In this document: in pieces, positions 1 to 40,328 of the stretch
Layout of the letters: every line of letters begins with the position of its first letter
Position numbering within the stretch: position 1 is the stretch's first letter
DNA from: Blasia pusilla
Lineage: Eukaryota
Assembly: GCA_050084515.1 (NCBI GenBank)
Contig: CM114271.1
Span: forward strand, 19,964,001-20,028,000
Reading direction: 5' to 3'
Length of the DNA stretch: 64,000 nucleotides
Notes under the pieces: generated by a model
Told to the model about the DNA's origin: nothing
Databases searched by the model: none
What the model saw: the letters and a program-made list of their open reading frames with translations, nothing else
Position numbers and translations under genes: made by a program

Positions 1-2761
1 TCTTAGGGAGGATACCGTAAGGCCATGCCACATAGACGTGCACCTTCATATGTGGCTCAACAACAGCCGCCTACTATTACTTGTTGGTTATTTGGTAGAG
101 CCCATCATCAGCGCGATTGCACTCGTCAAGATCATGGACGTGTGCCTCAGCATGGAGGAGGAGATGGTGCTGCACCAGGAGGTTATCAGTGTGACTATTG
201 TCAGAGGTATGGTCATACACGCTCTAGGTGTTTCAATTTACATCCTGAGTTACGTCCGGACCAAGGGCAGAGAGGGCACTAGAGCGAGTAGCCGGCTCGG
301 GTGGGCCTAGAGATCATGCACCGGGTGGTTCCGTTGGGGGACGAGGAGTTGGAGTTGCCCAACATGGTGGTGAAGCTGCCCGTGGAGGAGGTAGAGTACC
401 ACCACCTAGACGCGGCGAGGGAGACGTTGGACATGAGGCTGGGATGGCTGCTCAGATACAGCAGTTACAAGAGCAGATTGTTGCAATAGCATTGAGGTTT
501 CCCGATGCCGGATTCATGGCATCGACATCATATGGAGCAGCCAGAGATATGGAGGATCCTGGTTGGATGTGCGGGGTTGCCCAGATGGAGGCCGCCGCAG
601 TTGTGACGCGTGGAGCAGCGGTAGAGTTGGATCCACATCGAGGGGAAGCTAGAAAAAATAGGCTAGGCTTCCTTAGTTTTCACGTTGTCCGAAGCGATGA
701 GGACCCCATCGATGGGTCCTCATCAAAGTTCCTGGAGAGTTGGTGATGTTGTTGGTGTGTAGGCACGGAGGGCAATGGGAGAAGCGAGTGGGACGACTCC
801 TATTGTTGATGCTCATGAGGGGCATGTGTCGAGCACGTTGTTGGGGGCGACCACCATTGTGTACCGCACTCCTTTATTTTCTGCTTCCGATGTTATGACG
901 TTGGGGGGTATGCTTGCCAAGGCTTTTTGGCTAGCTGCTTCACTATGTGAGCGCCGAGTTGGAGTTCCTACATCACGTTCAGAGGTGATTGCAGAGGAGG
1001 TGATGGACCTGCCCTTGGAGCGGATGCTCGGGCCATCCACGTCAGATTCATGGCAGGTTGCGGCTGTTAGGATGGTGGAGATGCCCGCTAGACGCGCGAT
1101 AGGGCTTGCCATGGCTTCTCCTGATGTTGTGTTGCTGGATAACCGAGGAGAGGTCTTCCAATTGGTGAGTCTTAGAGATAGAGCTTTTAGTCTGCAACAC
1201 GTCTTGTTGGATTTAGGAGCGCAACCCCTGATGTTGGGGAAAGCGTCATTGAGAGGATTGGGCTTGACGAGAGCCGATGTGGAGCGTTGTCCATTCTGGA
1301 TACAGACATGCTTGGGTGGAGCGAGTACCACACAGTATATCACCCGGCAGGAGGTTGTGGTGAGGATTCTCCGGGATATCCTACAGATGAGTCCGTGGTG
1401 CGAGCCAAGGCGATAGTGACTGATGTAGAGTCCTACGACGTCTTGGTTGGTGGAGTAGTGTTATACTCGATGGGGTTTGCCCTGGGTTATTGGGAGGAGT
1501 AAGCGTCCTACAGACCAGGATGGCAGTTAGGTGATGGGCGCCTTAGCTCATTACCTGTTCGATTCACAAGTGTAATAATCGAGCAACGGCCACGAGAGGT
1601 GGCGACCTTAGCAGCACTTAGCAGTGCCATCACTTGGCCTAGTGATTTGATTGAGGGATATGTCCATGCAGAGGATACTCCCATTCCTGATATTACTATG
1701 GAGAGGAGTGTTATGGTAGCCGCATCATTCCGTGGAGGAGAGGTGCAATTGTGGGGCTCGATTGAGGAGCTTCGACGATTGGTAGATGAGCACGTGCAGA
1801 CCGTGTGAAGCAAGGCGTTTTCACCGGAGCGTGATGGGGCTGAGGAACTCGAGATAGCAGGGAGTGCTACGATGACACCCTTGGATACCACACCCATTGT
1901 GTGGTGTATCCGGGAGGAGAGTATTTGAGTGTTAGATCTCTTTGGAGGGATTAGCACCGGGTTAGCTGCTCTTATGCAGGCAAGAGTGCAAGTGCAGCAG
2001 TTGTTGTATGTGGAGAGTGATGATGTTGTGAGGCGCGTCTCACTACAACATGTGGCGCAGTTAAGCCTATGTTTTCCCGACTTATGGTCTACGACCACGG
2101 TACCGGGGTACTAGAGTTCCCTACCGAGGGATATTTCGTTGTTGGGGACGCAGGTGTTAGAGCGGGTAGGGACCATTGATTTGGTCATTGCCGGTAGGCC
2201 ATGGCAAGGCCAATCGAGTGCTGGACGAGGCAACGGGTTGGCTGACACTCGGTCCAGGTTGTTTTGGGAGATGTTGAGGGTCTTACGGCAGTTGGAGGAG
2301 CATCAGTCTCATTCTCCAGCCTAAATTCTAGAGGATGTGCCAATCTTATGAGACTCCACGTCATGGGTGGTAACGAGTGCTCATCACATGCGTGCCTGGA
2401 TCGGCCCAACAGTGTTCTTGGATGCAACGAGTGTAGGTTCTAGAGCCCATCGTCCGCGTCTTTGGTGGACCAACTTGGTGCCCCATGCGGTGTTACGGAA
2501 GGCGTATGCGAGAGTGGAATGCCCCTCCTATTTGTTAGTGGATTCCATTCTGGATCCAGCTCGTCGATCATAGGCAGTGAGGCACGATGATCGACCACCG
2601 TTGACTGTGGTCAATAGGGTAGGAAGGCCGCGGGCAGCCTTGCCCACGGCCTGCCTACTTTATTTTTCTCACTTCCTATGCATACAAGGTGGTCGGTCCT
2701 GGCTTGGTTTGGGATGACGAGGTTCAACGGTTGATGGAGCCCAATGCCGACAAGAGAGAGT
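1..2761 (+). mobile_element. Ty3/gypsy LTR retrotransposon fragment A (Gag C-terminus, protease, N-terminal part of C5 DNA methyltransferase), decayed
   Basis: Zinc knuckle CDYCQRYGHTRSRC (~190-230). Retropepsin motif VLLDLGAQPLMLG (~1200-1240). MTase motif I VLDLFGGISTG (1929), IV DLVIAGRPWQG (~2178), VI ILEDV (~2325), VIII GSRAHRPRLWWTNL (~2437). Many stops and frameshifts. Ends abruptly at EPNADKRE. Confidence 0.9.
1920..2761 (+). pseudogene. Retrotransposon-borne DNMT3-like cytosine-5 methyltransferase domain (copy A, truncated in motif IX)
   Basis: Motifs I, IV, VI and VIII in canonical order, plus GLADTRSRLFWEMLRVL, similar to the DNMT3 segment after motif IV. Catalytic PC changed to PW. 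Confidence 0.88.
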
Positions 2762-3045
2762 TGTCGTGCGAATCCACATCGTCATGCAACATACATCGCT
2801 GACATACCATACTCACATACATACATAACATAACATAAACAAGAGCATACACAAACACAAGTGTACCACAACTCGCCCCCCTAACTGGCGGTTAGGTCCC
2901 TCTAACTCCTAGGTAGCCCTATACATCTACTACATGTTATACACGTTCGTGGATGCACGAATCAGAAGGCCAGATGCTCGGTTGCCCCATCGTAAGTTGC
3001 ACATCTGTAATCCATATCATGCAAAGATCAAGTCATCTACCTCTC

Positions 3046-3200
3046 CTAAGTACATCGAGGAAAAACCCACCTTTCAGTAGGAACAACATCCATACGTGGA
3101 GTAAAACACATCATGTGCCAACCCCTAGAATACCGATCACACACCAACATACGGGTTGCGGTACTAGCAGACCCACACAACATGCACCTCAAGCTAGCGT
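3046..3200 (-). pseudogene. PHD finger at the integrase C-terminus (copy B)
   Basis: CMLC-x11-CDRY-x3-WH-x2-C...WVFPRC*. C4HC3 spacing with two decayed ligands, both intact in copy C. Confidence 0.8.
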
Positions 3201-6200
3201 GTATCATGGCTAAGCTTGGGTCAACATTACCATCCACATTTGGAAGATGACATGGCGCACAATTACGCACATGGTCCTTCCAAACAACTCCATCACGACC
3301 CTCCAACATGAGAACTCCAGAAGCTAACCTCTTGCACTCGTAAAATAGTGCGGCCTGCCGTCACATCCAACGTTGTCGGTTCAATCTGTTGCAAATAGAC
3401 ATAGTCCCCCATATGGAACCTACGAATCGATGGTTGATAACCTCCATCCCAAATGGTTGTATACCGCAACGTATCCCTATGTTGAGCAATGGCAAGATTC
3501 TCAAAGGCTGTTGGCATAACTCTCCGAAAGAGCTCTGCCCGCTGAGAAAACACTCTCATCCACATATTTAGGTCATCAAGGTTCACCACCTCACTAGACT
3601 CTTGACGAATTGCTACTGACAAGTCTGGATCTTGGCCGTATAACAGAAAATAAGGTGAGAAGGAAGCCAAGGATACTTGGCAACTGAACCTATACCCCAT
3701 GGCTAACCATGGCAACTAAATATCCTAGTCTCCAAGATGCCCCTTCTGTAGGCTATACTTGCGCAAGGCCCTCTTCACCGTGTGAACCACACGCTCACCC
3801 AAACCATCCGCCTCTGGATGATCTCGAGACGTGGTCCGATGATCAATCAACGCCTTGTCACACAAGACCTGAAACTCTGTATCCTGGTCGGTCAGCACTT
3901 CAGCTCGTGCACCAATATGACTAAGCACTCTATCAAGAAACGTATACGCCGTTCCCTCACTTGTCTTGTCATGTAATGCCAACAACTCAATCTACTTTGA
4001 GGAGTGCTCCACCATCACCAACACATATCGATGATGTCGTACAGTCAACGGTAACGGTCCCGTAAAGTCCACACTCCAACGGTAACCCAACCCCATAATA
4101 GGCAAGGGGTGTAACTATGGTGTAGGGGCATTGAATGATGCCCTCACCCGGTCACAAACCATACAACGTGACACCAACTGCTGCAATTGAGTATGCATGC
4201 CACGCCACCAATACTGACCAAGGAGTAAGCTATAACATACGTTTTATCCCAAAATGTCCCAACTCCTCATGGGCATGTAACACAATGCACTCTCTCTGAG
4301 CCAAATGCCACACTACTCGTACTCTACCATCCTCCCACATACGGAGAATATGTGTTCCCTCCAATCGATACCTCTTAGCTCGTTGAAGAACACGATCTCG
4401 CTCCTTGGCACTCACTATGCGTGGCACCCTACTGGTCCGTATGAACTCCAACACCAACGCATCATCATGAATATCACGTTGATCCGTACCACCATCTCCA
4501 ACCTTAGGATCTGAAGGCTGGCCATCTACCCTCTAACTAGAGTAAGATGTCATGTGGTCCCCCATACTAGAGTCCACCCCTAACCAACATAAAAAGGCGG
4601 ATGCATGCCAACCTGGCACCATCTCCTCATCAACCTCGCCATGCCATCTAGCCTAGTTGCATCCTCTTGGCTAGTACATGGGTTCCTACTCAACCCATCA
4701 GCATCAAGGTTGGCAACTCCAGGTCTATGTACCACCTGGAAGTCATACTCCTGTAAGATAACAGCCCACCGTGCAAGCTTCCCTATAAGCTTGTCAGACT
4801 CCATCAACCACTTGAGCGGCTGGTGATCATTAACAAGGGTAAATTGTGTGCCAAACAAGTAACACCTAAAGTGTGCCACAACCCACACTACTGCCAAGCA
4901 CTCTCCCTCATATGAACTGAAGCGCAACTCCGTTGCATTATTCGAATGACTTGCATAGGCCACCACAAACTCCATGTGCTCATCATCATGTTGTGTCAAC
5001 AACGCTCTAAGTCCCAACCTACTCCAATCAGTGTGTAACTGAAATGGGCACCCTCTGATAGGTCTCCTCAAGATAGGCGCCGTCACCAACTGGGCCTTGA
5101 GCTCCACAAAAGCTCTCTCTTGATCATCTCCCCAGTGCCACTCCTGATATGATTTCATCAATTGGTTCAAAGGCTTTGCCATAATACTAAATCCCTTCAC
5201 ATATCTTCGATAGTAGTTGCCAATCCCATGAATGCCCAAACTCTATTCACATCTACCGGATGAGGAATAAGTGCAATAGCCTCCACCTTTGCTTGCTGAA
5301 CTCCCAAACCACCTGGATATATCACATGACCCAAGTACTCAACATCCTCATGGAAGAACTTACACTTTCTTGGATGCAAACGTAGACCATGAGCTTTCAA
5401 CCGCTCAAACACAATCTGCAAATGTATCTGATGCTCCTCCACGGTATTACTGAACACCAAGATATCATCAATGTAACACCGAACAAAATCCAACCCTACT
5501 AGGATCCTGTCCATCACTCTCTGAAACTTGGTAGGTGCATTCTTCAACCCAAAGGATAAGAATTTCCACAAGTACAAACAATCCTTGCCATGAGAGTTGA
5601 CACCCCAAATGCTGTCTTGGCCTTGTCACTCTCTCGAATTGGCAACTGATGGTATCCTGCCCGAAGAACCAAAGTACTCAAAATCTTTGCTTGTCCCACC
5701 ACATCAAAGATCTCCTCAGGTGTAGGCATGGCATACCTATTGGCCTTAGTCTGCCGATTGATAGGACGGTAATCTCCACACATCCGCGTATCCGTGAAGT
5801 TGTCCTGCACATCCTTTTAAGCAGGCATGATAGTGGCTGATGCATACTCTCCATGCGACAACTCCACTAATCTAGCCTTCAAAAGGTCCAACGTCCTACT
5901 CTGAATCAGGTCCTTCTCCATATCACTATATCGGTAGGGATGACGGAAGATTGGCGAATCACTAGCCAAATCAATCCGTATACCGCGTCCAACCAAAGCA
6001 TCCAACTCCTTCATGCTAAAGGCAAAACAACTCCTATAAACACGTAGGAATTGTGTCAAGCGTCGTTTCTCACCTCCCGTAAGTTTGGGCCCAAGTAATG
6101 GCTCACAAGTCTCCTCCACTGACACACTAGAGGGAGAGGACGATGCCATTGGCTGCTACGCAATCCCCTCACAAGATGGTACACTCTTAGCTACATCATC

Positions 6201-6399
6201 ATCTGAGCAAATAACTCCTCCACCATCATGAGCAACCAACTCCACATGCCCAGCCATTACATCCCATTTACTCCAAGGATGCAAAATACTACTCTCCTCG
6301 CCCCCAGCCAATGCCTCTAGCGTCCCGGTAGCCATCGAGCTCATCACAAGGGGTGGAAGACCCACAGACATTGTCCGAAGTCGACGTTGCTCGGCCATA

Positions 6400-7340
6400 C
6401 CAAGACTCAAAATTCAAGTCAAAAAATTAAGGTCCATGGCCTGACCCAACACATGACGTCGTGAAGCCTCAGAAATGGAAGCAACCGTTGTCACACCAGT
6501 AGCAAATCCCATCGCACGCTCTCTCTCAACAACGTTAGGCTCCACCAACTGTCGCACATGAGAATCCCATACAAGCGCGAGACCACCTTCCCTGTAGGCA
6601 TGTGACGAGGGAAAACTCATAAATGTGGGTAGTGCCATCCTAGGCTGCCCCACACGGTTCACCACTGCCATGGGTGACCGATCAATAACCCTCATCACCT
6701 GAGAAAGTCGCCCTGTATCCAAGATACTATCCCTTTGTAAAGGCAAGGATCCCGCCAGACCTTTGCATCATATGCTTGACGTAGAACCTCCCTAGGCAAC
6801 AAGTTTATCCACCACAAGCGTGGACGATGTGCACGCGAGCCAACTCACAACACCGCTGGTCCAATCCAAGACTGCACCTCATGAACACTCGCCATCATCC
6901 GGGTCCGAGTATCACCCAACAATGGAACATTCTTCGGAATGTAAGTTGGAGCACGTGCCTGATGAACCTAAAGATATCGTAACACCCGTAACATCTCCCA
7001 AAACAATCGAGATGTAGGGTCGTGTAATCCCTCACCACGACCAACACGTGTATGACCCTGACATGGCCATCCAACAATCACCAAATCCTCGGGACCAACC
7101 CTCTCAAGGCCTTGCGCCCCCAACAATGCAATGTGTGACGGCAAAGCACGTTGGTACCCACAAATAGCTGATGGCGGAAATAACTCAAGATATCTCCGCA
7201 TCAATTGACCAATATGTCGGGATGAGACTCTCTGGACCGTCTCATCTCGCTCCATATACACGCACAGGAATACCGGCCTGCAACACTGCAGCCAAACCAG
7301 TGCTAATCCCACCAAAGAGATCTAACACACAAATGCCCTC
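6400..7340 (-). pseudogene. Retrotransposon-borne DNMT3-like cytosine-5 methyltransferase domain (copy B, full motif set I-X)
   Basis: I VLDLFGGISTGLAAVLQAG; IV DLVIVGWPCQG (catalytic PC intact); GLHDPTSRLFWEMLRVL; degenerate VI YIPKNV; VIII SRAHRPRLWWINL; IX/X ERERAMGFATGVT...SRRHVLGQAMDLN. Frameshifted. Confidence 0.9.
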
Positions 7341-9469
7341 CGGCGGATACTGCAATACAATGGGTGTAGTATCCAAAGGGAATAACCCAACTGGACGAGA
7401 AGTAGGAGTCCGCCGTGGGGCCTCCTCTTCCTCGTGAGGTATAACAGCCTCACACCAAGCCTCCTGCACTAGGCGATCAGCCTCTTGCCATAGTGCACCG
7501 CCTGAACTCCAAAGTGGCACATCCAACGATGAGGACGCCACTGCTGCAAAACTAGGGACCTCCTCATGCACGGGAGAATCCATAGTAGAAACATTACCCT
7601 CCAAAAAGTCTCCTGGCCAAGTGACTTCTCCACTAAAACCAGCCATAGATGCTAACACCGTTGGGGAAGACCCTCTTGATCGAGCGCCATAAATAAATCT
7701 CACAGGAACCTGGCTCATACGTCCATCCCCGGACTGCCAACTAGGTCTATAAGACGTTGTCTCAATCTAGTAGTCCATCTGAAAACCCATCGGGTACAAT
7801 ACTGCTCCTCCAACTAGTATATCATACGACTCGGATGATGTGACCACTCCAGGGACTCCCAACCGGGAGCTATCAGTCGCATGATCTGGTCTCAACTGTA
7901 CATACAACTTCTCTCGTGTCATGAATTGAGACCTATCATTGGCTCCTCCAAGTGATATTTGATTCTGGAATGGGCAAGGCTCAAGCTCTGACCTTCGAAT
8001 ATCCAAACCAATACATGTCGCCTTTCCCAACATCAAAGGTTGGGCACCAGAGTCTAACAAGACTCTACCTGGTCCATACACTTGTCCTGTAGGACTCACC
8101 AATCGGAATATCCCACTCCGGTTGTCCAACATACATACACCAGGTGTAAGCCTCTCACGATCAATGGATGGCCGGGCTGGTAATGCATCCATCTTCGCCG
8201 CTGCTGCCTGCCAAGTAGCACTGGTACTCAATGCTACACCTGACATAGAGGGTCGCTCCATTGCAACACCCTCATCCACCTCAGCACGTGTAGCAGTAAC
8301 ACCTCCACGTTCACACAACGTGACTGCTAGCTGAAATACATGAGCTAAGTCAACTCCTAAAGCCATCAGCTCCGTGGCCGAAACCAATTGGGATCCCAAC
8401 AATGAAGTTGCCATCCGCAATATTGCATTGGATGCTGCATCCGTGTCTACTACACGCGATGTAGATGCCTCAGTCCCCACTGTAGGCTCAATAGGCTGCG
8501 TAGGAACCATGGATGGAGTCCTAAGCACCTCGACAACAAGATTGATTGGGGAAGCCTAGCCTGCCTCCCAGCCCTCACCCCTCTGTGGATCCAACTCCAC
8601 AGTAGCACCACGTGGCTCTGACGCTCGAGTGGCTCCTCTTGTAACTGCAGCTGATGCCTCAACCTCTGTTGCACTCGCCATATAAGAGAGATCATCCCCT
8701 CCATAAGAGGTGGAAGCCCCTACTCCCAAACCTGATCTATGCTGGGTACCAGCAATAGTAGCAAACTTCTGCTCCAACTGCTCAATCATGGCAGCCATAG
8801 CTGACTTTGTCGTAGTGGTAGGGGTAGCCACCGTAGGCTCTCCAACCACTGGTCCACCTCTACCGCCCCTACCACCTCGGCCCCTCGGAGCTACTCCACC
8901 ACGGCCGCGGCCTAATCTCAACTCTGGATGAAGATCAAAGCAACGCTCTCGAGGATGACCTGGTCTCCCGCAATGATCACACTGAGTTGGGGCCGACTAA
9001 GGCCCATCCTCCAAAGTCCATCTCCCATCCTCTTGGGGATAAAACCTCCTAACATGATCAGCTCCACATGTCCAACATGACTGTCCTTGCTACGGGGCAG
9101 CAAATGAAGGCAATGGTCTCTACGCAAGTGTCCCTCTAGGACCTAACTGAGGTCGTGTGTATCCCCACGACTCCCACTACTACTACCACCACCACTACTA
9201 CAAGACTGTGAGGTGGACTACTGAACACGAGAAGTAGTAGTTGTATCCCTACTGAATGCGGATGTCACCACCCATGAGCTTGGCCCCTTCTTGGAGTAAC
9301 CATGAAGGTAAAAATAAGTTTTACTTCTTGTCAAAAAAGAAATGAAATTGTTAAGTATCTCTTCAGAAGGAGTTGAATGGTTGAATAAAAAATCAATTTC
9401 ATTACATAAATAAACCTTGTAAGAAGACATGGAAAGTTACAAGGGTTTTACCTCCTTCCCTTCTAAGAA

Positions 9470-10790
9470 GGGAAGGAGGTAAAAAATGTTTTAAAAAAAA
9501 GACAAAATGCCAACACTAAAAACAACACGACAAGTTGCGCGATTAATCATTTGAAATAAATACGACATACACACTAGTGGTTGGAAAGATGTGAATGGAT
9601 AATGAGAGGTGTGGCCACACACCATTTGGGATCAACGTATTAGCGCCAATACTTTTGCACGTTATAATGTCATCATGATACATTATAGATAATAAGTACT
9701 AACAACGAAAAGAGAAGACTACAGGAAGAGCCAGTTGATGATTATGGAGGGAGTGGCGAGTACATGTTTTCACAAATATATGAAAAAACATATGCATTTG
9801 GCCAAATAAATTTCACTTCAAAAATGATAAAGTCATTGATTGCAAGTCTCACCACATAAGTTGACTCCTCAATTCTTGCTACTATATTGACCATGAAACC
9901 TTTAGTGTGTATAACTTGACACAACAAGTTAGAATTATAGGATAAAAAACCATGGTACCATTCAATAGTCGGAAGCCACTCAAGACATGAGTAAATCAAC
10001 TTGTTGACGAGATGTTGGTTGTGTAATAGAAGGTAGGATAAGTAGTTTTGAATTCTCTTGCCCAACAATGCACTATTAAATATGACCCTCTAATGCTCTA
10101 ATCACATAATGGGTTCTCGGTTTGTTCCCCATCACGTGCACACCAAAGAAGTTGCAAAGAATACTAGAAAAGTTGATTTTGTGAGAATTCTTGTAGATAA
10201 GCTTTTGAATTCAATCTAGAACTTTTGTAATGAACAGAATGAAAAACAATACATATAATTGTTTACGTAGCAAGAGGAAGAAGTGCTTGGGCAGATCTTA
10301 ACTATTTTTTTAACAACCGATCACTCCTTGATATGGGCTTCATTATCTGTCAAATTTCCTTTAGATACATTATAGTCAATATTTGCACAACCAAAGCCCA
10401 ACTTCTTAAAAAGTTATTCGTTACCTTGGAGCAAGGAAAATCCCTTGCCTCCAAAATAAATGGACAAGATACTTTATTACGAAGAAAGAAATCATTGTCT
10501 CTATCAAAAGTATTAGGACCAAGAATTATACTAAACGTTGTCATAATAGAAGTGTTGCAAGAAGCCAACCAATATGAGAACTCTTAGGTTAAATGAAAAT
10601 GCATCTAGAGAGGGTAGGAAGGATGTAAAAAAAAGTGTATCGATAAAGAAACCCATAAGCCACTTAGGAGCTCCCTAAATGATTAACATAAGAAACCATT
10701 CTATATCTTTCAAAATGGCCTCCTCTAAGATCTTGAATATTTAATCTATGAAGCCAATTTTTTCCCTCAATTTCATAACCAAACTCGCAC
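9470..10790 (-). mobile_element. Highly degenerate 3' part of the CRE-type non-LTR retrotransposon
   Basis: Colinear nucleotide similarity to 21430-22950, e.g. 10006 gacgagatgttggttgtgtaatagaaggtagga vs 21976 gacgagaggttgcttgtgtggttgaaggtagga, and 10694 aaccattctatatctttcaaaa vs 22888 agccattccacgtctttcaaaa. Confidence 0.75.
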
Positions 10791-12671
10791 CAATACAAAA
10801 TATCAAAGCTCTAGTGGGCTAACAATAAAATAGAAACACCTCGCGGCTTGAAGAGTGAGACATGAGTTATGGAAGCGAGATGCAAGCTTTAACAATTGTC
10901 TCAAAGGTTGATGGTCGTGACCTAGAAGAGCATGATATAATGCAAGTTGGAACTTGAGAAGAACTAAAGTCTTAGAAGAGCTCGACTTCAATGAGTATGA
11001 AACCTAGCTAGGATCCTAAGTAAGTTTTTGGTGGCTTTCATATTTGAGGTCACAATACATTGGCCCACGATGCGTTTGGGATAAAGAAGGCGACGTTGGA
11101 AGGCTTGTGAGAAGTCAATTCAAACGCACAAAAGATATTGAAAAAACACATATAAAAGTTCTTAAATGGGCCTACAACTGTCAAAATGAGAGTTTGGGTG
11201 AACGGCCAAAAGAAGTAGCCCAAGAAGAATTCCTTAGACAAAGGAAGGAGGGAAATTTCATCTTGAATAGCTAAGTCTACAACACCCACACCAGTGGAGA
11301 TGCGGGAAGTGAGTTAAAATTTAGGGTCCAAGGAGGAAAACCTTGGTGTGACCCACCAAAGTCGAAACCTAGGCTAGCTAGTTGTGAGACTAGGTGGGCG
11401 AGATGCCACAAGACTAGTCATGAAACGTGAAGGGTGGCAAGAAAACCTTATATGATATATCAATTTGCGAGTTGGCATGGGCACTAGCCATAGGACACAT
11501 GAGTCCAAGCTCCAAGATATGTTTGGGGATCAAAGAGTTTTATAATTTGGGCAAAGCCTCCACCAAACCATCTTGAAGTATAACTAATTAAACATTGGTC
11601 TACGAGTTGCGCACCACATTTGGGTTTAGGGGTTGAGGGCCAAAATTCAAGGTTTGACGGGGAAAATGGGGAAGGTGGGTTACCTATGAGAACCCCAATA
11701 GTACCTATAGGTGGGACACTCTCCATCGCTACCCGCTCAAGTCTTTGAACTAGGAACTATATAACTATGATGAATGTTTGGTTGCATGTGTTCACGCTTG
11801 AGCTAGGGGATACACCTTGAGGAATTAACCAACACGCTTTGGTAAAGATGAGTGACTTGGGGAGATTGGTGAAGGCTTGGAGAAGATATTTCCAAGGGAG
11901 ACAATGCGTACTTGGGGAGACTCGAACCGATTAGCCCTTGGCGGCTTTTCGCCTATCTATGGAAAGTACAATCGGTTAAGTCTTTGGGACTCAATCTAAG
12001 TCTTCAGCTTGCAAAGCTTAAGGTCAAGAGTGCTTTGGGGCATGCATAGAGCTTGCACAAAGATGGCCGGGTATAATAGAAAGTCACACAAACAAAGCTG
12101 AATAGAAAAATATGCTTCGTAACAAATGAAGTAGAGATCAGAATCTATGAAGAATTTCTCTCTAATTATATGTAAGGAGGAGAGTCTTTATAGGAGTCTG
12201 GAACCTGAATCCCAACTTGGAAACCACGAGGATTAAACCAAGGAAATCAAATGGTTTGATAAGTTAGTATTTGGGTTTTGAAACCAAACTTAATCCACAT
12301 GGTATAGGTTTAGAGCTCAACCTCAAACCCTAATCCAAATCTTGAATATTGAGTTCCGACTAAAGTCTCGTTTGAGGTCCTTTGGAGAGTTGGGACTACC
12401 ATGCGCACCAGCGTTGATTAAGGTCCTTAGACTCTTAAGGAAATCTATCCCAAGTGGAGAATGACTTGATATGTTTGGGAGTGAGGGATTAAGTCAACAT
12501 CTTCTGTGTCTAGATGTGTTGAGCTTGAGGGTCGTCCCAAGATTCAATCTCAGAAGGATAAATGATGATTGACCCAAGCCATGGTTAATATTAGTGTGTA
12601 TGGGTACAAATCAATAATAAGGGAAGAAGGTAGGAAACAAGTCAAAAAATTTATGGGATAGAATTTGATAA

Positions 12672-12839
12672 GCTCTTTGAAGATTTCGTAGATAGATTAA
12701 CATATGAAACCATTCTATATGTCGTGTGCATACACATCACAACACAAAATACATCGCTCTTTGGAGATTTCGTAGATAAGGTAACATATGAAACCATTCT
12801 ATATGTCGTGTGCATACACATCACTACATAACATACATC
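12672..12839. repeat. 84-bp tandem duplication spanning a LINE-fragment/LTR junction
   Basis: 12672-12755 and 12756-12839 are near-identical (gctctttg.agatttcgtagata...aaaccattctatatgtcgtgtgcatacacatc). Confidence 0.85.
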
Positions 12840-13444
12840 GCTGTTACCAAACACACACACAAATATCCACGATCCCATGCTAACTCATGGCATCCAAACA
12901 AGGAGACAAGAAGTACCAAAATATCTCCAATAAAGTAAGATCCAATCTCTCTCTACACCATCTCACACCATAGCTCTCAAAGGTGTGCACTCTCTCTTAT
13001 GTCAAACCAAACCCACTCTCCTAATGAGAGGCTTGGGTTACACTCACAAGGCAAGGGACCATAGCGACGCCGCCTTATGCCAAGAGGTTCAACAAAGAGA
13101 GAATGAGCTCCCAAACTTTCTCTCCTTGAGATATACCCCTCCCCTCTCCCAAGCTCTCTCCATGGTAACCTATGCTCACAAGTCATCTCCTTGGCTCTTG
13201 ACCTGATGAATGAGGTTAAGGGCCAATTAACAAAAATAGGAAGTCGAGCACATACTCAAAATGGTACTTACCTAGAATAGTAAGTTCCTAAATATGGCTC
13301 CAAATGAGCCGAAATGAAGGAAAAACCTACTCTCTCAAGTTTCTCGGGGCCTCAATAGGTATTCCTTGACCTTCTGAGCCTGTCCTCCACTACTCACAAA
13401 GGTGCTCTACTAGATCTTACCGATCTATTCTAAGAGACGTGACA
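12804..13444 (-). repeat. LTR (~640 bp) of the DNMT-carrying gypsy family
   Basis: Bounded by tgtc...gaca inverted termini (12804 tgtcgtg; gacgtgaca ending 13444). Lies distal to the integrase-PHD and G-tract of copy C. Confidence 0.7.
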
Positions 13445-16400
13445 ACTGTCATGCGCATACACATCGCTATACAACATACATCGCTGTCACCGAACACACA
13501 CACAAACATGCACGATCCCATGCTAACTCACGGCATCCAAACAATGAGACAAGAAGTACCAAAATATCTCAAATCGCCCCCCTAGCTGGTGGTTAGGTCC
13601 CTCTAACTCCAGATCGTCATCTATCCCTACCTACCATAACATACATCTCTAGGACGCTAAAAGCAGAAAGACCGGGTGCTCATGTGGCCCCATCGTTAGT
13701 CGCCTTATTGTCATCCATATCACAAACACAAGTTGAAATGTAGAACTACCTACTCTATGTACATCTGGGACACATCCATCATCCCGGAGGAACCTTAATG
13801 AGAGGTGACGTCAAACATGCCATGTGCCATCCTCTCGAACACCCATCACAGACTAGCATAGTGGCTCCACCACGGACGGAACCACACAACATACACCGCA
13901 AGCCTACATGAACTGTTGCTAAGCTCGGATCAACTGTACCATCAATGTTAGGAAGGTGACATGGCGCACATGGTCCTTCCATACCATACCATCGCATCCC
14001 TCCAGCAAGAGAACACCAGATGGCAAAAAGTCATGCACTCTCAGGATAGTGTGCCCTGCAGTCACATCCAACGTCATTGGTGTCGTCTGTTGAAAGTAGA
14101 CATAATCTCCCTGATGAAATCTCCGGATAGTTGGTCGATAACCACCACCCCAAATAGTCGCATACCTCAAGGTATCCTGATGTTGCGCAATCGCCAAGTT
14201 CTCGAACGCCATGGGCATCACTCTCCGAAACAACTCAGCCCTCTGAGAACATGCTCGCATCCATACATCTGGGTCATCAAGGTCCAACATCTCACCAGCA
14301 TCCCGACGAATGGCCGTAGGTAAATGTGGCTCCCGGCCATAAAGTAGCAAGTACGGTGAAAAAGATGCTAAGGATGCCTGTTTGATGAATCTGTATCCCA
14401 ATGCCAACCATGGAAATTGGAGGTCCCAATATCCCAGGTGACCTCTCTACAAGCCATACTTGCGTAAACCCCTCTTCACCGTATGCATAACTCTCTCCAT
14501 TAATCCATTCATCTCGGGATGATCTCGCGAAGTCATGCGGTGGTTGTTTAGTGTCTGATCACATAAGGCATGGAACTCACCACAAAACTCGGTACCCTGG
14601 TCTCTCAACACCTTAGCCGATGCGCCGTAATAACTCAACACTCAATCTAGGAAGGCATACGCTATTCCCTCACTCGCTTTGTCAGGCAATGCAACCAACT
14701 CCATCAACTTCGAGAAGTGCTCAACCATCACCAACACATAACGACTGTGACGCTCCGTCAAAGGCAATGGTCCTGCAAGATCCAAATTCCATCTATACCC
14801 TAAGCCCATGATCGGCAGTGGATGCAATTGTGGAGTCTGAGCATTGAACGATGCTCGGATCCGATCACACACCATGAACCTGACAACAAACTGTTGAACG
14901 TCAATCTACATGCCTCGCCAACAATACTGAATCTAGAGCAAGCTGTACGTCCGCTTCACCCCAAAGTGACCCTACTCCTCGTGAGCATGCTGCACTAGTC
15001 GTGCTTTCTGCAAAGGATGTGGTACTACGTGTACTCCACCATCCTCCCAAACCCTCAAAATATGTGTCCCCTCCCAACGGAACCGTCTGGCCCGCTGTAG
15101 GATCCGATCCCGCTCTCTAGCATCCAAGGTGCTCGCAACGCTGCCAATACGAAGGTACTCTAAGACTACTCCATCATCATGAATATCTCGGCCACCTGTC
15201 AACTCCTCACTGGCCTCGGGATCCAAGGACTCTCCACTCGACCTCGCCATCGACGTCTCCAAACTCTGGCTCTCCATAGCCAACATGCCTAAATAGGCTG
15301 ACGCGTGCCATCCTGGCACTAACTCCTCATCACTCTATCCATGCCATCGAGCTCCAGTCACATCTTGCTGACTCGGGCATGGGTTACGACTCAACCCATC
15401 TACATCTTGGTTGAGCATCTCAGGTCTATGTACCACCTGAAAATCATACTCCTGCAACAAGAGAGCCCATCTCGCAAGCTTCCCTGTAAGCTTGTCGAAC
15501 TGCATCAACCACTTTAGTGCTTGATGATCAGTGATGATGGTAAAGGGGTTGCTGAATAAGTAACACTTGAAATGCGCGACATCCCACATTGCCGCCAAGC
15601 ACTCACCCTCATACAAGTTGTACTTCGCCTCTACAACGTTGTTCAAGCGGCTAGCATAAGCCACCACAAACTCTCTACCCTCATCATCATGCTGGGAGAG
15701 CACCGCTCCAAGCCCCAACATGCTCCAATGTGTGTGCAAGTGGAAAGGACGCCCCCTGATCGGTCTCCTCAAGATGGGCGTGGACGTCAACGTGTCCTTG
15801 AGCAACTGAAATGCTCGCTCCTGCTCATCCCCCCCAGTGCCACTCGTGATCCACCTTGGACCACAAGGTTAGCGGCTTTGCAATCGAACCGAATCCCTTC
15901 ACGTACCGCCGGTAGAAGTTTGCCAATCCCATGAATGCGCGAACACGGCTCACATCTGTAGGGCGTGGAATGCATGAGATAGCCTCTACCTTCGTCTCTT
16001 GAACACCAAGGCCCCTTGGGTATATCGTATGACCCAAGTACTTAATCTTGTTGTAGAAGAACTTGCACTTGCCTCGATGTAGCTTCAGCCCATGTAATTG
16101 CAATTGTCGAAACACCTCCTCTAGATGTCGCTCATGCACCTCAACCGTGGCGCTAAAGACTACGATGTCATCAATATAGCACTTGGAAAAATCCAGACAA
16201 GCCAAGATCCTATCCATAACCCTCTGAAACTTAGTCGCGGCATTTTTTAACCCAAACGGTAAGAACCGCCATTGGTACAAACAATCCTTCCTGTGAGGAT
16301 CGATGCCCCAAAATGCCCTCTTCTGCCTATCCTCCAATCTAATAGGCAGCTGATGGTATCCAGCTCGCAAATCCAACAAACTGAAGACCTTTGCGTGACC

Positions 16401-17311
16401 AATCGCATCAAAGATCTCCTCAAGGGTGGGCATGGCATACCTATCGGACTTCGTCTGTCGATTGATAGGTCGGTAATCCCCACACATCCGACTATCCGTC
16501 CAGTTGCCATGCATATCCTTCTTGGCGGGTATGATAATGGCAGATGCATACTCCCCATGCGACATCTCCACTAGTCCTGCTCCGACCAAGTTCTGGCTCC
16601 TACTTTGAATCAACGCCCTCTCCATATCACTATACCTATAAGGTCGTCGGAAGATCGGCGGATCACTCGACAACTCAATGCGGATCCCCAGTCCCTTCAA
16701 CGTACTAAACCGGATACATAAGTTCCTCAGGAGTTCTAAGAGTTGCATGCTAAACGCAAAGCAGCTCCTATAACTCCTGAGGAACTGATGTATCTAGCGT
16801 CGCTCTCCTCCTGTCAACTTAGGGCCCATATATGGCTCCCAAGTCTCCATCGTGACTACGATAGGACTCTCCGGCGCGGGTATCGGTGGTTGCTATGATG
16901 CAACCCCGTCTCAAACAACAACACTTGCCCGCTCCCTAGCAACCAAGTGCAAACTCTTATCTCCTCACGTGCAGTGCATGGAACCACGCTCGATGTTGTG
17001 GCTATCATCTCCTGGCGTACCTGCAAAACATCCCAAGAAGTCCAAGGGTGTCTCTCCTAATCTCCCCTTGTGTGGAGATCTCCTCGGGTCTCGCCCCCAG
17101 CCACTGCCTCCACCATCTTGGTAGGCATGGGGCTCACCAACGCAATCAATGTGATATGTCGAGATCTCATATGGCGTTGCTCAGCCACTTCCAAGTTGAG
17201 GATCCATGTCAAGCAATTCAAGTCCATTGCTTGACCCAAGACATGACGTCGTGATGCCTCTAACACTGACGATACTGCCGTCACTCTTGTGGGAAATCCC
17301 ATCGGTCGCTC
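12804..17311 (-). mobile_element. Ty3/gypsy LTR retrotransposon fragment C (DNMT motifs IX-X, RT, RNaseH, INT, PHD, PPT, LTR), decayed
   Basis: ERPMGFPTRVT..SRRHVLGQAMDLN (17190-17311). RT ORF 15825-16748 with YIDDI. RNaseH 15335-15805. Integrase 13950-15000. PHD CMLC..CDGC..WH..C..WMCPRC (13755-13905). G-tract at 13577-13584. Confidence 0.93.
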
Positions 17312-19907: not shown

Positions 19908-20249
19908 CCAAAAAAAAAATGTGCGCAAAGAAGATTCAAGTATTTAGCTTTATCACAATATTGTTCTTTAGATCGTTCAGTTTTCATATCTTCGTTTAAA
20001 TATTTCTAACTAGATGCTTTTCATCCTTTCTTGCAAGCAACCTTCTTCATTCGCAATGATTATCACCTTACCACCACTACCATGACAATCACTACATATG
20101 GTTGATTTACAATTGCTTTGCTCACATGTTATTATAAACATCCAATGTGCCAATTTTGTTCTTTTTAGATTGAAGAGATTCTCCATTGCATACTTTTCAA
20201 TACAATTTCATTGCACTTATGATGATCAATATCAATTCTCAAGATTTTC

Positions 20250-24400: not shown

Positions 24401-25500
24401 CGATGGAGATCAATTTGGCTTAACCAAGTCCAAGCAGTTGTTGTGGGGAGTGCAGTAAGAGGTGGTATCGGGTTAGGGATTGAAGGCCCATGCATGGATC
24501 GACAGTACCGCTGATGTCTTTTGATCCCATTAGGAGCAAACTCCTTACCACAAGGTATGCGACGAACCTTTGGTACAAATGGAGAAATAGAAGGGTTACA
24601 AGGAGAGGAGGTGGGAGGTGCAAGAGGTGGTGATGGCCGACGATGAGGGGGTAAGTAGGTTGGGGAAGGAGGAGGAGGAAGAGGGGAGATTCGGGTAGAA
24701 TAGATGGGAGTTGGAAGCAAGGGCATAGATGAGATGTGTGGGGATGGCAAAGTAGAAGGATTCGGTAATAATGGATCAAGATTAGGCTCAATAGGACAAG
24801 GCGAAGAAGGGAGAAGAGGAGAATCCGGAAGAAAAGTAGCGAGTGTAATGGGTGTATTAGCATCTGGAGGAAAATGGCGAGATCTATGATGAGGTGGTGA
24901 ACCAGGGGGAGAGGTTACAGTTGTAGGAGGGCGTGTAAAACCAGATAAGCGAGTAGATGGAGAATCCAACTCCATCTCTGATGACATAGAAGTAAAGGTA
25001 GGCAAGTCTTCGAAGACAAGAAAAGACATATGAAACGTGGTTTGGAGAAAGCATGAGGATAAGGAGCAAAGCAAAAGTAGTAGAATCCGTCCAAAAGAAA
25101 TTTAGATGGAGAGATGAAGATTAGGCAATACCGAATTTATGATTGAAAGTTACTATAAGAAAAATATAAAAAACAATTGAAAAGGAAAAGTGATGTATAT
25201 GGCATCGGAAGAGATGGCTCAAGAATATGAATTTCTAATGTCCTTAAGGAGATGGCAAACGTATGTAGGGGCGAAACAGTAAGGTAAGGAGTTGAAAGAG
25301 CAAGTAAGACATTTGGGAGGAATTGACCTAAAACAAACCCGTACACAAAAATAGGCGCCTACAGAGAAGGAAGAAAAACTAGAAAACCTACTTGATATCA
25401 AAAGAACGAGCTCGTCAAGACGATCGAAACAGGCCCAAACACGTCCAAAACCGACATTCCAGAAGAAAGTTATGAAAGAAATTAGAAACACAAAAAAAGG
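21430..25500 (-). mobile_element. CRE-type non-LTR retrotransposon with restriction-like endonuclease (near full-length, frameshifted)
   Basis: Pro-rich N-terminus and zinc finger CGKEFAPNGIKRHQRYC (~24500). RT motifs GVRPLAIGE, QFGVATPGG, DVANAFNSVSR, RQGDP, IVDD. CCHC knuckle CVCG..HILRC..H (~22080-22165). REL motif RRMDLV..DVGIADP..K..Y..FIPVAVEVF..ISVALQRAQA (21600-21980). Confidence 0.88.
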
Positions 25501-39560: not shown

Positions 39561-40193
39561 CTCGCCAAACATCACAGTTTTGTTATCTGTCATAATCTTT
39601 GTCTGCGTTCGTTGTCATTGTTGAAGCCGTTGTCCGTTCGCTGCGCATTTCGGGACTCGGCAGTACCGCAGAGCGATTTCTTTTCAGCACTCTCTCTCTC
39701 TCTCGCTCCCTCGCCAGCCCGCTAGCGTGAGGACGCCGTTCGTGGTAGGCGCTCGCTGTCCGACGCCGACGCACGTTCTTCAGTGCGCGGAGAAGAGCTC
39801 GAGCAATTGAAGGTACCGCAGAATTCCGGTCAAAGAAGAGCATAGCGAGTCTGTGACAGGTGCAAGAAGAACGACGAACGAACTGGCGAAGGGGAGAGGA
39901 ACGGGAAAACCCTAATTCGGTGACAGGAAGGAGGGGAGAGTGTGCTCTACGGTGTGGGGAAGGGTTTTGGGAGCTTGATGGGAAGGACGGGTGGAGCACG
40001 GCGGAGCAATTGAGGAGGGAAGGCAGGAGGGCGAGGAAATTTTGCAGCGTGAGGTTTTCTTTAGGGTTTTGGAGAGAGGTGTTGCGGTGGGGTTTTGGTT
40101 CTGGCGTGAGAAGTGTCGTGAGGAGGAGAGGAGGAGCAGAATTGTTTTGCATGTTGAGAATCAGGGAGGCTGGATTTCTTCTGGGACTCGCGG

Positions 40194-40328
40194 ATGGATC
40201 CGAGACTGGATCATTCGAGGATGGACCCGAGGATGGATCCACGGATGGATCCGCGGATGGAGGCGAGGATGGACCCGCGGATGGATGCGAGAATGGACCC
40301 GCGAATAGATACGAGAATGGACACGAGG
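40194..40328 (+). repeat. 12-bp coding tandem repeat encoding (MDPR)-like units
   Basis: [45 protein letters not shown]. Confidence 0.92.

What the first reader, a model, noticed from the sequence alone, without database searches (positions are those of the whole stretch)
6400..7340. Gypsy retrotransposon family encoding its own DNMT3-like cytosine methyltransferase inside Pol, in a land plant
Seen: between the protease and RT of element B is a complete C5-MTase motif series: I LDLFGGISTG, IV GWPCQG, GLHDPTSRLFWEMLRVL, VI (ILEDV in copy A), VIII AHRPRLWW.NL, IX-X ERAMGF...RRHVLGQAMD. The same domain sits at the same position in diverged copies at 1920-2761 and 17190-17311, so it is a family-level feature, not a one-off capture. 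Known: the motif wording resembles DNMT3 (LSLFDGIATG, GRLFFEFYRLL, AHRARYFWGNL, ERVFGFP..RQRLLG) and the order is not the permuted DRM order. DNMT-bearing retrotransposons have been described in dinoflagellates and the charophyte Klebsormidium (de Mendoza et al. 2018); I do not know of a characterised embryophyte family. Inference: the MTase would be processed from the polyprotein and could methylate the element's cDNA or integration site. All copies here are decayed.
Basis: partly seen in the sequence, partly recalled or inferred. Interest (0 to 1): 0.92.

Follow-up and report, generated by a model that had tools for sequence, protein, structure and literature searches.

The report
Liverwort gypsy retrotransposon carrying its own DNMT3-like methyltransferase
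Dead copies of a jumping gene in a liverwort genome carry a DNMT3-like DNA-methylating enzyme inside their replication protein, extending a family known from a freshwater alga into land plants, including the lab model Marchantia.

Summary
The motifs are real. On the minus strand, 7340-6414 holds a C5 cytosine methyltransferase domain between protease and RT of a Ty3/gypsy element (copy B). A second copy lies at 1920-2761. Its last motifs are at 17314-17180, because an inversion split that copy, so the window holds two DNMT copies, not three. Both are dead.

Pfam PF00145 passes its cut-off. A family profile hits DNMT3A at 8.6e-29, against DRM at 3e-17. A predicted structure of a relative matches DNMT3 catalytic domains.

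The host is a Marchantiopsida liverwort. Relatives with the same PR-DNMT-RT order occur in Marchantia polymorpha, Calypogeia, Sphagnum, Closterium, Mesostigma and Klebsormidium nitens, the host of the published KnitGypsy-Dnmt3. A sister class from chlorophytes and environmental contigs has the order RT-RH-DNMT-INT-PHD. The window copies also carry a PHD finger after integrase.

dN/dS of the DNMT segment is 0.15, the same as for RT.

Verdict: a new land-plant member of a known kind. No paper I could search describes it in embryophytes. What the enzyme does is inferred, not shown.

The parts
1..2761 (+). Copy A+C, 5' half, cut by the window edge. Gag C-terminal part to about 760; protease region 763-1500; linker 1503-1915; DNMT motifs I-VIII and the start of IX at 1920-2761. 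Decayed.
   Evidence: tblastn of P0004 residues 291-1157; three-frame reading; PF00145 at 28.5 bits on P0001; 7 stops in 405 codons; PW in place of PC.
6414..7340 (-). Copy B, DNMT3-like C5 methyltransferase domain: the finding itself. Motifs I, IV, VIII, IX and X are readable. Motif VI is decayed (IPKNV). There are 2 frameshifts, 2 in-frame stops and a 4-residue deletion.
   Evidence: PF00145 at 21.5 bits on one piece; P0004 residues 892-1258; 74% identical to Calypogeia P0003 over 319 columns.
7341..9158 (-). Copy B upstream part. PR-DNMT linker 7766-7341; protease region 8555-7767; gag C-terminal part with a CCHC knuckle 9158-8556. The gag N-terminus is missing.
   Evidence: tblastn of P0004 residues 275-907 onto 9158-7254; ORFs (CDHCGRPGHPRERC read directly). 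Pfam gives no hit on the protease or gag pieces. The protease assignment rests on homology to relatives whose protease is hit by Pfam.
2762..6413 (-). Copy B downstream part. DNMT-RT linker 6413-6156; RT 6155-5200; RNase H 5242-4580; integrase 4579-3361; PHD finger 3360-3046; 3' non-coding stretch 3045-2762, ending at the inversion breakpoint.
   Evidence: tblastn of P0009 and P0021; RT_RNaseH PF17917 at 4.2e-31; PHD PF00628 at 1e-5; B and C align over 2762-5990 / 13447-16694 at 70%.
13447..17314 (-). Copy A+C, 3' half. DNMT motifs IX-X 17314-17180; RT 16793-15825; RNase H 15868-15335; integrase about 15334-14031; PHD finger 14030-13779; 3' stretch to 13447.
   Evidence: PF00078 at 7e-29 and PHD at 2.1e-7; tblastn P0004 1157-1243 and P0009 657-1190; alignment row win_C.
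2762..17314 (.). Inverted segment. Its two ends separate the halves of copy A+C and detach copy B's 3' end from 17315 onward.
   Evidence: A and C abut at P0004 residue 1157. Joint 2761/2762<->17314 on opposite strands in 3 RNA runs and in DNA contigs. Loose ends at 17314 carry the reverse complement of 2763-2772. Whether this is a real inversion or an assembly error is not settled.
19281..19904 (+). Gag N-terminal fragment of a further copy of the same family (copy D). No DNMT is retained.
   Evidence: tblastn of P0004 residues 1-216 at 69% identity.

Best explanation
The window, from a Marchantiopsida liverwort, holds two decayed copies and one gag fragment of a Ty3/gypsy LTR-retrotransposon lineage. 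Its polyprotein reads gag - protease - DNMT3-like C5 cytosine methyltransferase - RT - RNase H - integrase - PHD finger. The methyltransferase is an ancestral, selected part of Pol in this lineage, not a local capture. The same PR-DNMT-RT order is found in Marchantia polymorpha, Calypogeia, Sphagnum, Closterium, Mesostigma and Klebsormidium nitens, so the window's family is the land-plant branch of the lineage published as KnitGypsy-Dnmt3.

Shown here: domain identity, order, DNMT3 likeness in sequence and predicted fold, conservation of catalytic residues across the family, purifying selection equal to that on RT, and RNA from 95-99% similar copies in the same organism label.

Inferred, with my odds:
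- The domain is an active de novo DNA methyltransferase in intact copies (about 0.6).
- It acts in cis on the element's own cDNA or fresh insertion, so that the new copy enters the genome already methylated. This would either pass it off as resident heterochromatin or damp its own expression (about 0.35).
- The PHD finger on integrase tethers integration to a histone-tail state, as chromodomains do in chromoviruses (about 0.4).

The two window copies can do none of this. Both are broken and have lost a catalytic residue.
For: Domain identity:
- PF00145 at 28.5 bits against a cut-off of 22 on copy A, and 35-51 bits on relatives.
- The family profile A1 hits DNMT3A at 8.6e-29, DNMT3C/3B at about 1e-26, tobacco DRM at 3e-17, DRM2 at 3e-14, M.HhaI at 1e-10 and DNMT2 at 8e-10.
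- AlphaFold model of Calypogeia P0003: residues about 300-645 have pLDDT 89-98. All Foldseek rows listed (down to rank 49) are DNMT3A/B/C, best E 2.2e-17, TM 0.79-0.84 on the target.
- In the 51-row alignment the catalytic Cys and Gln (PCQ or ECQ) and the two Arg of motif VIII are at least 90% conserved, and the ENV Glu is invariant.

Family level:
- 20 of 20 long hits carry the domain region. Of 73 hits, 19 are named Marchantia polymorpha, 2 Calypogeia fissa, 3 Sphagnum, 1 Klebsormidium nitens and 48 are unnamed.
- There are 1120 cluster representatives at E<=1e-3.
- Among the 177 proteins examined, domain order falls into two classes with no conflicting order.
- K. nitens GAQ93235.1 has protease before DNMT and is 34% identical over 422 residues to the Calypogeia protein, E 7e-58.
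- Uninterrupted Pol ORFs with the domain exist: P0039, 2188 aa, CCHC-PR-DNMT-RT-RH-INT; and L003, a 2027-codon ORF.

Selection:
- A vs B, DNMT: 227 codons, pN 0.265, pS 0.706, dN/dS 0.15. Protease 0.15, linker 0.31.
- B vs C: RT 0.15, RNase H 0.14, integrase 0.07, PHD 0.18, 3' non-coding 0.54.

Host: Tic110 exon 88% identical to M. polymorpha, 82% Riccia, 80% Calypogeia, 71% Physcomitrium.

RNA: 1374, 1203 and 1451 reads of three RNA runs lie on 1-20000, mostly on copy B, with the first mate on the + strand.
Against: - No enzyme activity, processing site or methylation target was tested.
- No tree with host DNMT3, DRM, CMT or MET1 could be built, so 'DNMT3-like' rests on score ranking and fold, not on phylogeny.
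- Motif IV is PCQ/ECQ, as in bacterial and DNMT1 enzymes, whereas in the DNMT3A chain aligned the matching stretch reads PCN.
- No PWWP or ADD domain accompanies the methyltransferase.
- No LTR pair was found in the window, so the LTR-element status of these copies rests on the Pol domains and on relatives.
- About 98% of the RNA reads are only 95-99% alike. They therefore come from other copies or another strain, and depth is lowest over the DNMT bin (2-5x, against 20-47x over RT-INT).
- The Marchantia proteins are gene models and may skip breaks.
- The two bryophyte-clade metagenome loci I could read (L001, L002) are also interrupted.
- Synonymous sites are saturated (pS about 0.7), so the dN/dS values are rough.
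Confidence: 0.85

Rival explanations
1. The domain is kept but is not a DNA methyltransferase in the element's life cycle. It could methylate RNA, as DNMT2 does and as de Mendoza et al. suggest for SymbioLINE-DNMT, or it could serve as a DNA-binding or structural module of Pol.
For: DNMT2 chains are hit by the family profile at 8e-10. The SymbioLINE DNMT failed to methylate DNA in yeast (PMC5890265, Discussion section read). Purifying selection does not say which substrate is used.
Against: DNMT3A scores 19 orders of magnitude better than DNMT2. All Foldseek rows listed down to rank 49 are DNMT3 catalytic domains. The residues conserved across the family, the Cys, the ENV Glu and the two motif VIII Arg, are, from my own knowledge, the catalytic set of DNA C5 methyltransferases.
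Confidence: 0.12
2. A one-off event: a host DNMT3 pseudogene or a foreign insertion that happens to lie inside these particular gypsy copies, or an assembly chimera.
For: The window does contain a rearrangement (the inversion of 2762-17314) and nested TE fragments. All local copies are broken.
Against: The same order in the same frame context is seen in 27 PR-DNMT-RT-class rows from at least six named genera. The domain sits inside uninterrupted Pol ORFs. Copies A and B are 65% identical in DNA, yet the DNMT is their best conserved segment.
Confidence: 0.02
3. The liverwort sequences are domesticated host genes derived from the element, not parts of a mobile family.
For: NCBI and UniRef list the Marchantia copies as ordinary proteins, some auto-named DNA (cytosine-5-)-methyltransferase.
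Against: There are many paralogues per genome, with gag, protease, RT, RNase H and integrase attached. Near-identical Marchantia copies have DNMT branch lengths of 0.002-0.08, typical of recent transposition. The window copies are decaying, not conserved at a fixed locus.
Confidence: 0.03

Closest known systems
KnitGypsy-Dnmt3 of Klebsormidium nitens (de Mendoza et al. 2018, Nat Commun 9:1341; passages of section 9 and the whole Discussion read)
   Same: A gypsy-type Pol with an unrearranged DNMT3-related domain inside the polyprotein ORF, intronless, under purifying selection (they report Ka/Ks < 0.2; here 0.15). A K. nitens protein (GAQ93235.1) has protease before DNMT, like the window copies, and is 34% identical over 422 residues to the liverwort-clade protein.
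   Different: The host is an embryophyte (a liverwort), with relatives in other liverworts and in Sphagnum. The bryophyte sequences form their own fully supported clade of 14 rows, apart from the K. nitens row. A PHD finger follows integrase; that paper's text has no occurrence of 'PHD'. I could not confirm that GAQ93235.1 is one of their annotated copies, because figures and supplements were not available. They describe DIRS-like repeats; no terminal repeats could be defined here.
SymbioDIRS-Dnmt3 and SymbioLINE-DNMT of Symbiodinium (same paper)
   Same: Retrotransposon-encoded C5 methyltransferases. SymbioDIRS-Dnmt3 methylated CG in yeast according to the Discussion.
   Different: Different retroelement classes (DIRS, LINE), a different host kingdom, and an independent acquisition according to the authors.
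Cellular DNMT3A/3B/3C (solved structures) and plant DRM
   Same: Nearest solved relatives by profile (8.6e-29) and by predicted fold (TM 0.79-0.84). The motif order I-IV-VI-VIII-IX-X is collinear.
   Different: About 23% identity. Motif IV is PCQ/ECQ, where the DNMT3A chain aligned and 38 reads PCN. There is no PWWP or ADD domain. The domain is embedded in a retroelement Pol. DRM is circularly permuted and matches only over motifs I-IV.
Chromoviruses (Ty3/gypsy with a chromodomain after integrase; REXdb paper PMC6317226, passages read)
   Same: A histone-reader module fused to the C-terminus of integrase.
   Different: The passages searched in that paper have no occurrence of 'methyltransferase', 'PHD' or 'Marchantia'.
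DAM-LTR and EpiLTR retrotransposons (bioRxiv 10.64898/2026.05.21.726589; passages read)
   Same: Ty3/gypsy-like elements that carry DNA methyltransferase modules, in some clades placed between RT and integrase.
   Different: Those carry adenine methyltransferases, or a DNMT4-related C5 enzyme. The authors report DAM-LTRs as absent from Streptophyta and cite 'streptophytes (Gypsy-DNMT3)' only as prior work.

Membership tests
C5 cytosine methyltransferase (Pfam PF00145) | Profile match above the curated cut-off | tested here: met
   28.5 bits against a cut-off of 22 on copy A read with X at its stops; 34.9-51.3 bits on seven relatives. One ORF piece of copy B alone gives 21.5 bits, just below the cut-off.
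C5 cytosine methyltransferase (Pfam PF00145) | Catalytic residues: Cys of motif IV, Glu of ENV, Arg-x-Arg of motif VIII | tested here: met
   Family: Cys and Gln at least 90% conserved, Glu invariant, both Arg at least 90% conserved in 51 rows. Window copies: B keeps PCQ but has Lys for the Glu; A keeps the Glu but has Trp for the Cys. So the feature is met for the family and lost in each local copy.
DNMT3 class | Closest to DNMT3 among solved methyltransferases, by sequence and by fold | tested here: met
   Profile: DNMT3A 8.6e-29, against DRM 3e-17, HhaI 1e-10 and DNMT2 8e-10; no DNMT1 chain at E<=0.01. Foldseek: every row listed, down to rank 49, is DNMT3A/B/C.
DNMT3 class | Unpermuted motif order, unlike DRM | tested here: met
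   Collinear alignment to the DNMT3A chain, residues 9-199 and 238-270. DRM chains match only their C-terminal half over motifs I-IV.
DNMT3 class | Placement inside the DNMT3 clade in a tree with DNMT1/MET1, CMT, DRM, DNMT2, DNMT5 and bacterial enzymes | not tested
   No host DNMT sequences could be obtained. The tree holds only element-type sequences and is unrooted.
DNMT3 class | PWWP and/or ADD reader domains next to the catalytic domain (animal DNMT3) | tested here: not met
   Pfam finds none in the polyproteins. PMC12344493 states that protist and algal DNMT3s lack companion domains (passage read), so this is not defining outside animals. A PHD finger sits far downstream, after integrase.
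Ty3/gypsy LTR retrotransposon | Pol domain order protease - RT - RNase H - integrase | tested here: met
   Window copy B by tblastn and Pfam. Relatives: P0039 reads CCHC-PR-DNMT-RT-RH-INT.
Ty3/gypsy LTR retrotransposon | Long terminal repeats, primer binding site and target-site duplication | tested here: inconclusive
   No repeat pair flanks any copy in the window. Copies are truncated by the window edge, by the inversion and by other insertions. L003 shows no direct repeat of 80 nt or more.
KnitGypsy-Dnmt3 lineage (de Mendoza 2018) | DNMT3-related domain inside the Pol ORF of a gypsy-type element, homologous to the K. nitens copies | tested here: met
   K. nitens GAQ93235.1: protease at 604-697, DNMT at 825-1148; 34% identity, E 7e-58 to the liverwort-clade protein. 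A second K. nitens hit is P0357.
KnitGypsy-Dnmt3 lineage (de Mendoza 2018) | Bryophyte and K. nitens elements share one origin of the PR-DNMT-RT arrangement | tested here: inconclusive
   All 65 RH-DNMT-INT rows sit in one clade with 100% support, and all 27 PR-DNMT-RT rows lie outside it. However, the backbone among the PR-DNMT-RT lineages has support of only 43-84 (quick search, LG+G4, SH-aLRT only).

The most novel reading that the evidence does not exclude
A very old Ty3/gypsy lineage, at least streptophyte-wide and with a rearranged sister class in chlorophytes, carries its own chromatin 'writer plus reader' kit: a DNMT3-like methyltransferase in Pol and a PHD finger on integrase. It has persisted into land plants and is recently active in the model liverwort Marchantia polymorpha. 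The enzyme would be catalytically active and would methylate the element's own new copies. If so, the open question of what transposon-encoded DNMTs are for becomes testable by genetics and methylomics in a tractable land plant. Part of the de novo methylation seen on liverwort and Sphagnum repeats would then be transposon-made rather than host-made.
Probability: 0.3. Interest if true: 0.8.

Novelty: new member of a known kind. Interest (0 to 1): 0.6.

Why it matters
Cytosine methylation is the main way plants silence transposons, so a transposon that brings its own de novo methyltransferase inverts the usual picture.

In what I could read, the only streptophyte case named is an alga, Klebsormidium, where no activity test is reported. 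Finding the same lineage in liverworts and Sphagnum, with near-identical copies in Marchantia polymorpha, matters for two reasons:
1. The arrangement has been kept through the move to land.
2. It can be studied in an organism that, as far as I know, has transformation, gene editing, DNMT mutants and published methylomes.

The PHD finger on integrase and the second architecture (DNMT moved between RNase H and integrase) add two points. The module is mobile within Pol, and it travels with a histone reader. This bears on how these elements choose or mark their insertion sites.

A practical point also follows. Pfam-based counts of 'DNMT genes' in bryophyte proteomes will be inflated by these copies, some of which UniRef already auto-names as DNA (cytosine-5-)-methyltransferase.

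Tried and rejected
- Whole genome of the window: none is held. No genome-wide copy census or LTR dating was possible.
- LTR search in the window: only inter-copy matches and a 128-nt repeat (12804-12931 / 13447-13574) were found, with no flanking pair. Copy C's downstream flank and 17315-19300 share no detectable similarity.
- First metagenome scan, with the Calypogeia protein: 41 pattern matches, none confirmed.
- Second metagenome scan, with the alignment: 80 loci kept. I read only 3 of the 80 (L001-L003). The two bryophyte-clade loci are interrupted, so no intact land-plant copy was seen as DNA.
- Sequencing runs: no RNA holder was listed by the index.
- Names for environmental relatives: of 30 representatives looked up, 6 carried an organism name. 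These were 3 Closterium, 1 Scenedesmus, 1 Mesostigma and 1 Klebsormidium.
- Literature. Nine full-text searches, and passages of ten papers, found no description of a DNMT-bearing retrotransposon in an embryophyte. Two later papers speak only of 'streptophytes'. Supplements and figures were closed, and could hold bryophyte rows, especially the supplementary trees of PMC12344493 and the supplementary data of PMC5890265.
- Rejected readings: a host DNMT3 pseudogene, a one-off capture, and a DRM-type permuted enzyme.
Full report
**Observation.** On the minus strand, motif I (VLDLFGGISTG) lies at about 7329-7297. Motif IV (GWPCQG) and the following GLHDPTSRLFWEMLRVL lie at about 7075-6975. AHRPRLWW lies near 6835, and ERERAMGF...RRHVLGQAMD at about 6530-6430. 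The stretch sits between a protease region (8555-7767) and RT (6155-5200) of a gypsy-type element, copy B.

It is not a chance resemblance. Copy A (plus strand, 1503-2717) read with X at its seven stops scores 28.5 bits on Pfam PF00145 against a cut-off of 22. Its best solved relatives are DNMT3A chains, aligned collinearly from motif I to motif VIII.

Both local domains are dead. B needs three frames, has two in-frame stops and a four-residue deletion, and has Lys in place of the ENV glutamate. A has Trp in place of the catalytic Cys.

**Anatomy of the window.**
- Copy A ends at residue 1157 of the Marchantia protein P0004 (...EPNADKRE at 2761).
- Copy C, on the other strand, begins at residue 1157 (ERPMGF at 17314). 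Both breaks fall inside motif IX.
- Reads of three RNA runs and DNA contigs of the same organism label show a joint between 2761/2762 and 17314 on opposite strands. Loose ends at 17314 carry the reverse complement of 2763-2772.

The simplest reading is an inversion of 2762-17314, real or an assembly error. It split copy A+C and detached B's 3' end from the sequence now at 17315 onward.

Copy B runs 9158-2762: gag C-terminal part, protease, DNMT, RT, RNase H (PF17917, 4.2e-31), integrase, then a PHD finger at 3360-3046 (PF00628, 1e-5). Copy C has the same PHD finger at 14030-13779 (2.1e-7). A gag N-terminal fragment of a further copy lies at 19281-19904. No LTR pair could be found.

**Host.** A Tic110 exon at 32840-33820 is 88% identical to Marchantia polymorpha, 82% to Riccia sorocarpa, 80% to Calypogeia fissa and 71% to Physcomitrium. 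The window also holds a LEAFY gene. The host is a complex thalloid liverwort other than M. polymorpha, so 'land plant' is right.

**Family.** A search with copy A for longer proteins gave 20 hits: 15 Marchantia polymorpha hypothetical proteins, one Calypogeia, one Sphagnum fallax and three unnamed. Among them were a 1278-residue gag-protease-DNMT model and a 1190-residue protease-DNMT-RT-RNase H model.

A search with the Calypogeia domain gave 73 hits: 19 named Marchantia, 2 Calypogeia, 3 Sphagnum (three species), 1 Klebsormidium and 48 unnamed. No vascular plant appeared among the named ones. The search is word-based, so this absence is weak evidence.

The exhaustive HMMER search found 1120 cluster representatives at E<=1e-3 and 369 at E<=1e-10. 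Of 30 representatives looked up, six had organism names: three Closterium, one Scenedesmus ('pol'), one Mesostigma viride, and Klebsormidium nitens GAQ93235.1.

I located protease, DNMT, RT, RNase H, integrase and PHD in the 177 proteins then held. Two architectures appear and no conflicting order:
- PR-DNMT-RT-RH-INT, in the bryophytes, Closterium, Mesostigma and Klebsormidium.
- RT-RH-DNMT-INT-PHD, in Scenedesmus and many environmental contigs.

I built a tree of 130 DNMT segments. Rows with under 240 matched residues and seven near-duplicate cluster members were left out. The search was quick, with LG+G4 and SH-aLRT only, and the tree is unrooted.
- All 65 RH-DNMT-INT rows fall in one clade with 100% support. 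All 27 PR-DNMT-RT rows lie outside it.
- The two window copies sit in a 14-row clade with 100% support, together with Marchantia, Calypogeia and four environmental rows.
- Copy B is 74% identical to the Calypogeia protein.
- The Marchantia rows have end branches of 0.002-0.085, that is, near-identical copies.

The K. nitens protein is 34% identical over 422 residues to the Calypogeia protein, E 7e-58.

Uninterrupted Pol ORFs that include the domain exist in relatives: P0039, 2188 residues, and locus L003, 2027 codons with RT-RH-DNMT-INT-PHD, preceded in frame by a gag ORF that ends in a single stop.

**Class of the enzyme.** A profile of 51 family members hits DNMT3A at 8.6e-29, DNMT3C/3B near 1e-26, tobacco DRM at 3e-17, Arabidopsis DRM2 at 3e-14, M.HhaI at 1e-10 and DNMT2 at 8e-10.

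An AlphaFold model of the Calypogeia protein has pLDDT 89-98 over residues about 300-645. Every Foldseek row listed, down to rank 49, is a DNMT3A, 3B or 3C catalytic domain, best E 2.2e-17, TM 0.79-0.84 normalised to the target.

The motif order is unpermuted. Across the family the catalytic Cys and the following Gln, and both Arg of motif VIII, are at least 90% conserved, and the ENV Glu is invariant.

There are two differences from the solved DNMT3 chains. Motif IV reads PCQ or ECQ, where the DNMT3A chain aligned and 38 reads PCN, and no PWWP or ADD domain is present. I could not build a tree with host enzymes, so 'DNMT3-like' is a ranking, not a phylogenetic placement.

**Selection.** Values are Nei-Gojobori estimates from my own script, on codons paired through tblastn. 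Synonymous sites are saturated, so the ratios are rough.

| Comparison | Segment | dN/dS | Note |
|---|---|---|---|
| A vs B | DNMT | 0.15 | 227 codons, pN 0.265, pS 0.706 |
| A vs B | protease | 0.15 | |
| A vs B | PR-DNMT linker | 0.31 | |
| A vs B | gag | not defined | pN/pS 0.69 |
| B vs C | RT | 0.15 | |
| B vs C | RNase H | 0.14 | |
| B vs C | integrase | 0.07 | |
| B vs C | PHD region | 0.18 | |
| B vs C | DNMT tail | 0.12 | 35 codons |
| B vs C | 3' non-coding | 0.54 | |

The domain has been kept as strictly as RT along the lineages that separate the copies. The neutral-evolution refutation therefore fails.

**Expression.** Three RNA-seq runs of the same organism label lay 1374, 1203 and 1451 reads on 1-20000. 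Only 24, 28 and 27 of these are 99% alike or better, so the reads come from related copies or another strain.

Depth is 20-47x over B's RT-to-integrase bins, 7-14x over protease, and 2-5x over the DNMT bin, almost all with the first mate on the plus strand. This shows that members of the family are transcribed. It says nothing firm about the DNMT part.

**What is known.** De Mendoza et al. 2018 describe KnitGypsy-Dnmt3 in Klebsormidium: unrearranged, intronless, inside Pol, with Ka/Ks < 0.2. They mention bryophytes only for the host-type Dnmt3. Two later papers from the field refer to TE DNMT3s 'in streptophytes' without naming land plants. In the terms I searched, the REXdb classification paper, a Marchantia methylome paper and a liverwort genome comparison do not mention a methyltransferase-bearing element. 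Nine full-text searches found no embryophyte report. Supplements and figures were closed and may hold one.

**Mechanism.** Identity, order, conservation and transcription of the family are shown. The following are inferred:
- Intact copies make an active de novo DNA methyltransferase (about 0.6).
- It acts on the element's own cDNA or fresh insertion (about 0.35). This is the idea de Mendoza et al. put forward for DIRS elements.
- The PHD finger tethers integrase to a histone state, by analogy with chromovirus chromodomains (about 0.4).

Whether the domain is cleaved from RT is unknown.

**Verdict.** This is a real and correctly read feature. It is a land-plant member of a published kind of element, with two additions: the PHD finger, and the second architecture with the DNMT moved within Pol. 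It also has a useful foothold in Marchantia. The local copies themselves are relics.

Noticed in passing
window 2762-17314: A 14.5-kb segment is inverted relative to the order implied by the two halves of copy A+C. Reads show the un-inverted joint (2761/2762 with 17314, opposite strands) in RNA and DNA runs. It is either a real inversion or an assembly error.
   Followed up: partly
window 3046-3360 (-) and 13779-14030 (-): A PHD finger follows integrase in both copies. The same PHD is found after integrase in the RT-RH-DNMT-INT-PHD relatives. It takes the place that the chromodomain holds in chromoviruses.
   Followed up: partly
proteins P0030, P0044 and others; locus L003:1400-7483: A sister class of elements has the DNMT between RNase H and integrase instead of between protease and RT. 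All 65 such rows form one clade in the DNMT tree, so the module seems to have moved once within Pol. L003 has gag and pol in one frame, separated by a single stop codon.
   Followed up: partly
window about 40390-46770 (+): A LEAFY/FLORICAULA gene. The SAM domain is at about 40395-40630, and the DNA-binding domain is split over 45869-46060 and 46444-46755, with an intron of about 5 kb. Upstream, in frame with the SAM domain, is a run of RMDP-type peptide repeats (40158-40300).
   Followed up: partly
window 26810-33898 (+): A Tic110 gene (chloroplast inner-envelope translocon). The last large exon at 32756-33898 is 88% identical to Marchantia polymorpha. The ORF at 26810-27376 looks like its transit-peptide exon; I did not check this.
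   Followed up: partly
window 9493-10759 and 21460-25100 (-): Two diverged copies (67-68% identical) of another retroelement. It has a weak RT match (PF00078 at 24.2 bits, below the cut-off) and a proline-rich ORF. It looks like a non-LTR (LINE-type) element. One copy abuts the 5' truncation of copy B.
   Followed up: no
window 12672-13574: An 84-nt tandem repeat (12672-12845) and a 128-nt direct repeat (12804-12931 / 13447-13574, 91% identical) lie just downstream of copy C. The DNA word depth in bin 12674-13340 is the highest of the 20 kb laid. This may be a high-copy LTR or solo-LTR piece.
   Followed up: no
UniRef/NCBI records behind P0006, P0311, P0333: Some copies of this element are auto-named 'DNA (cytosine-5-)-methyltransferase' in UniRef. 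Domain-based counts of DNMT genes in bryophyte proteomes will include transposon copies.
   Followed up: no
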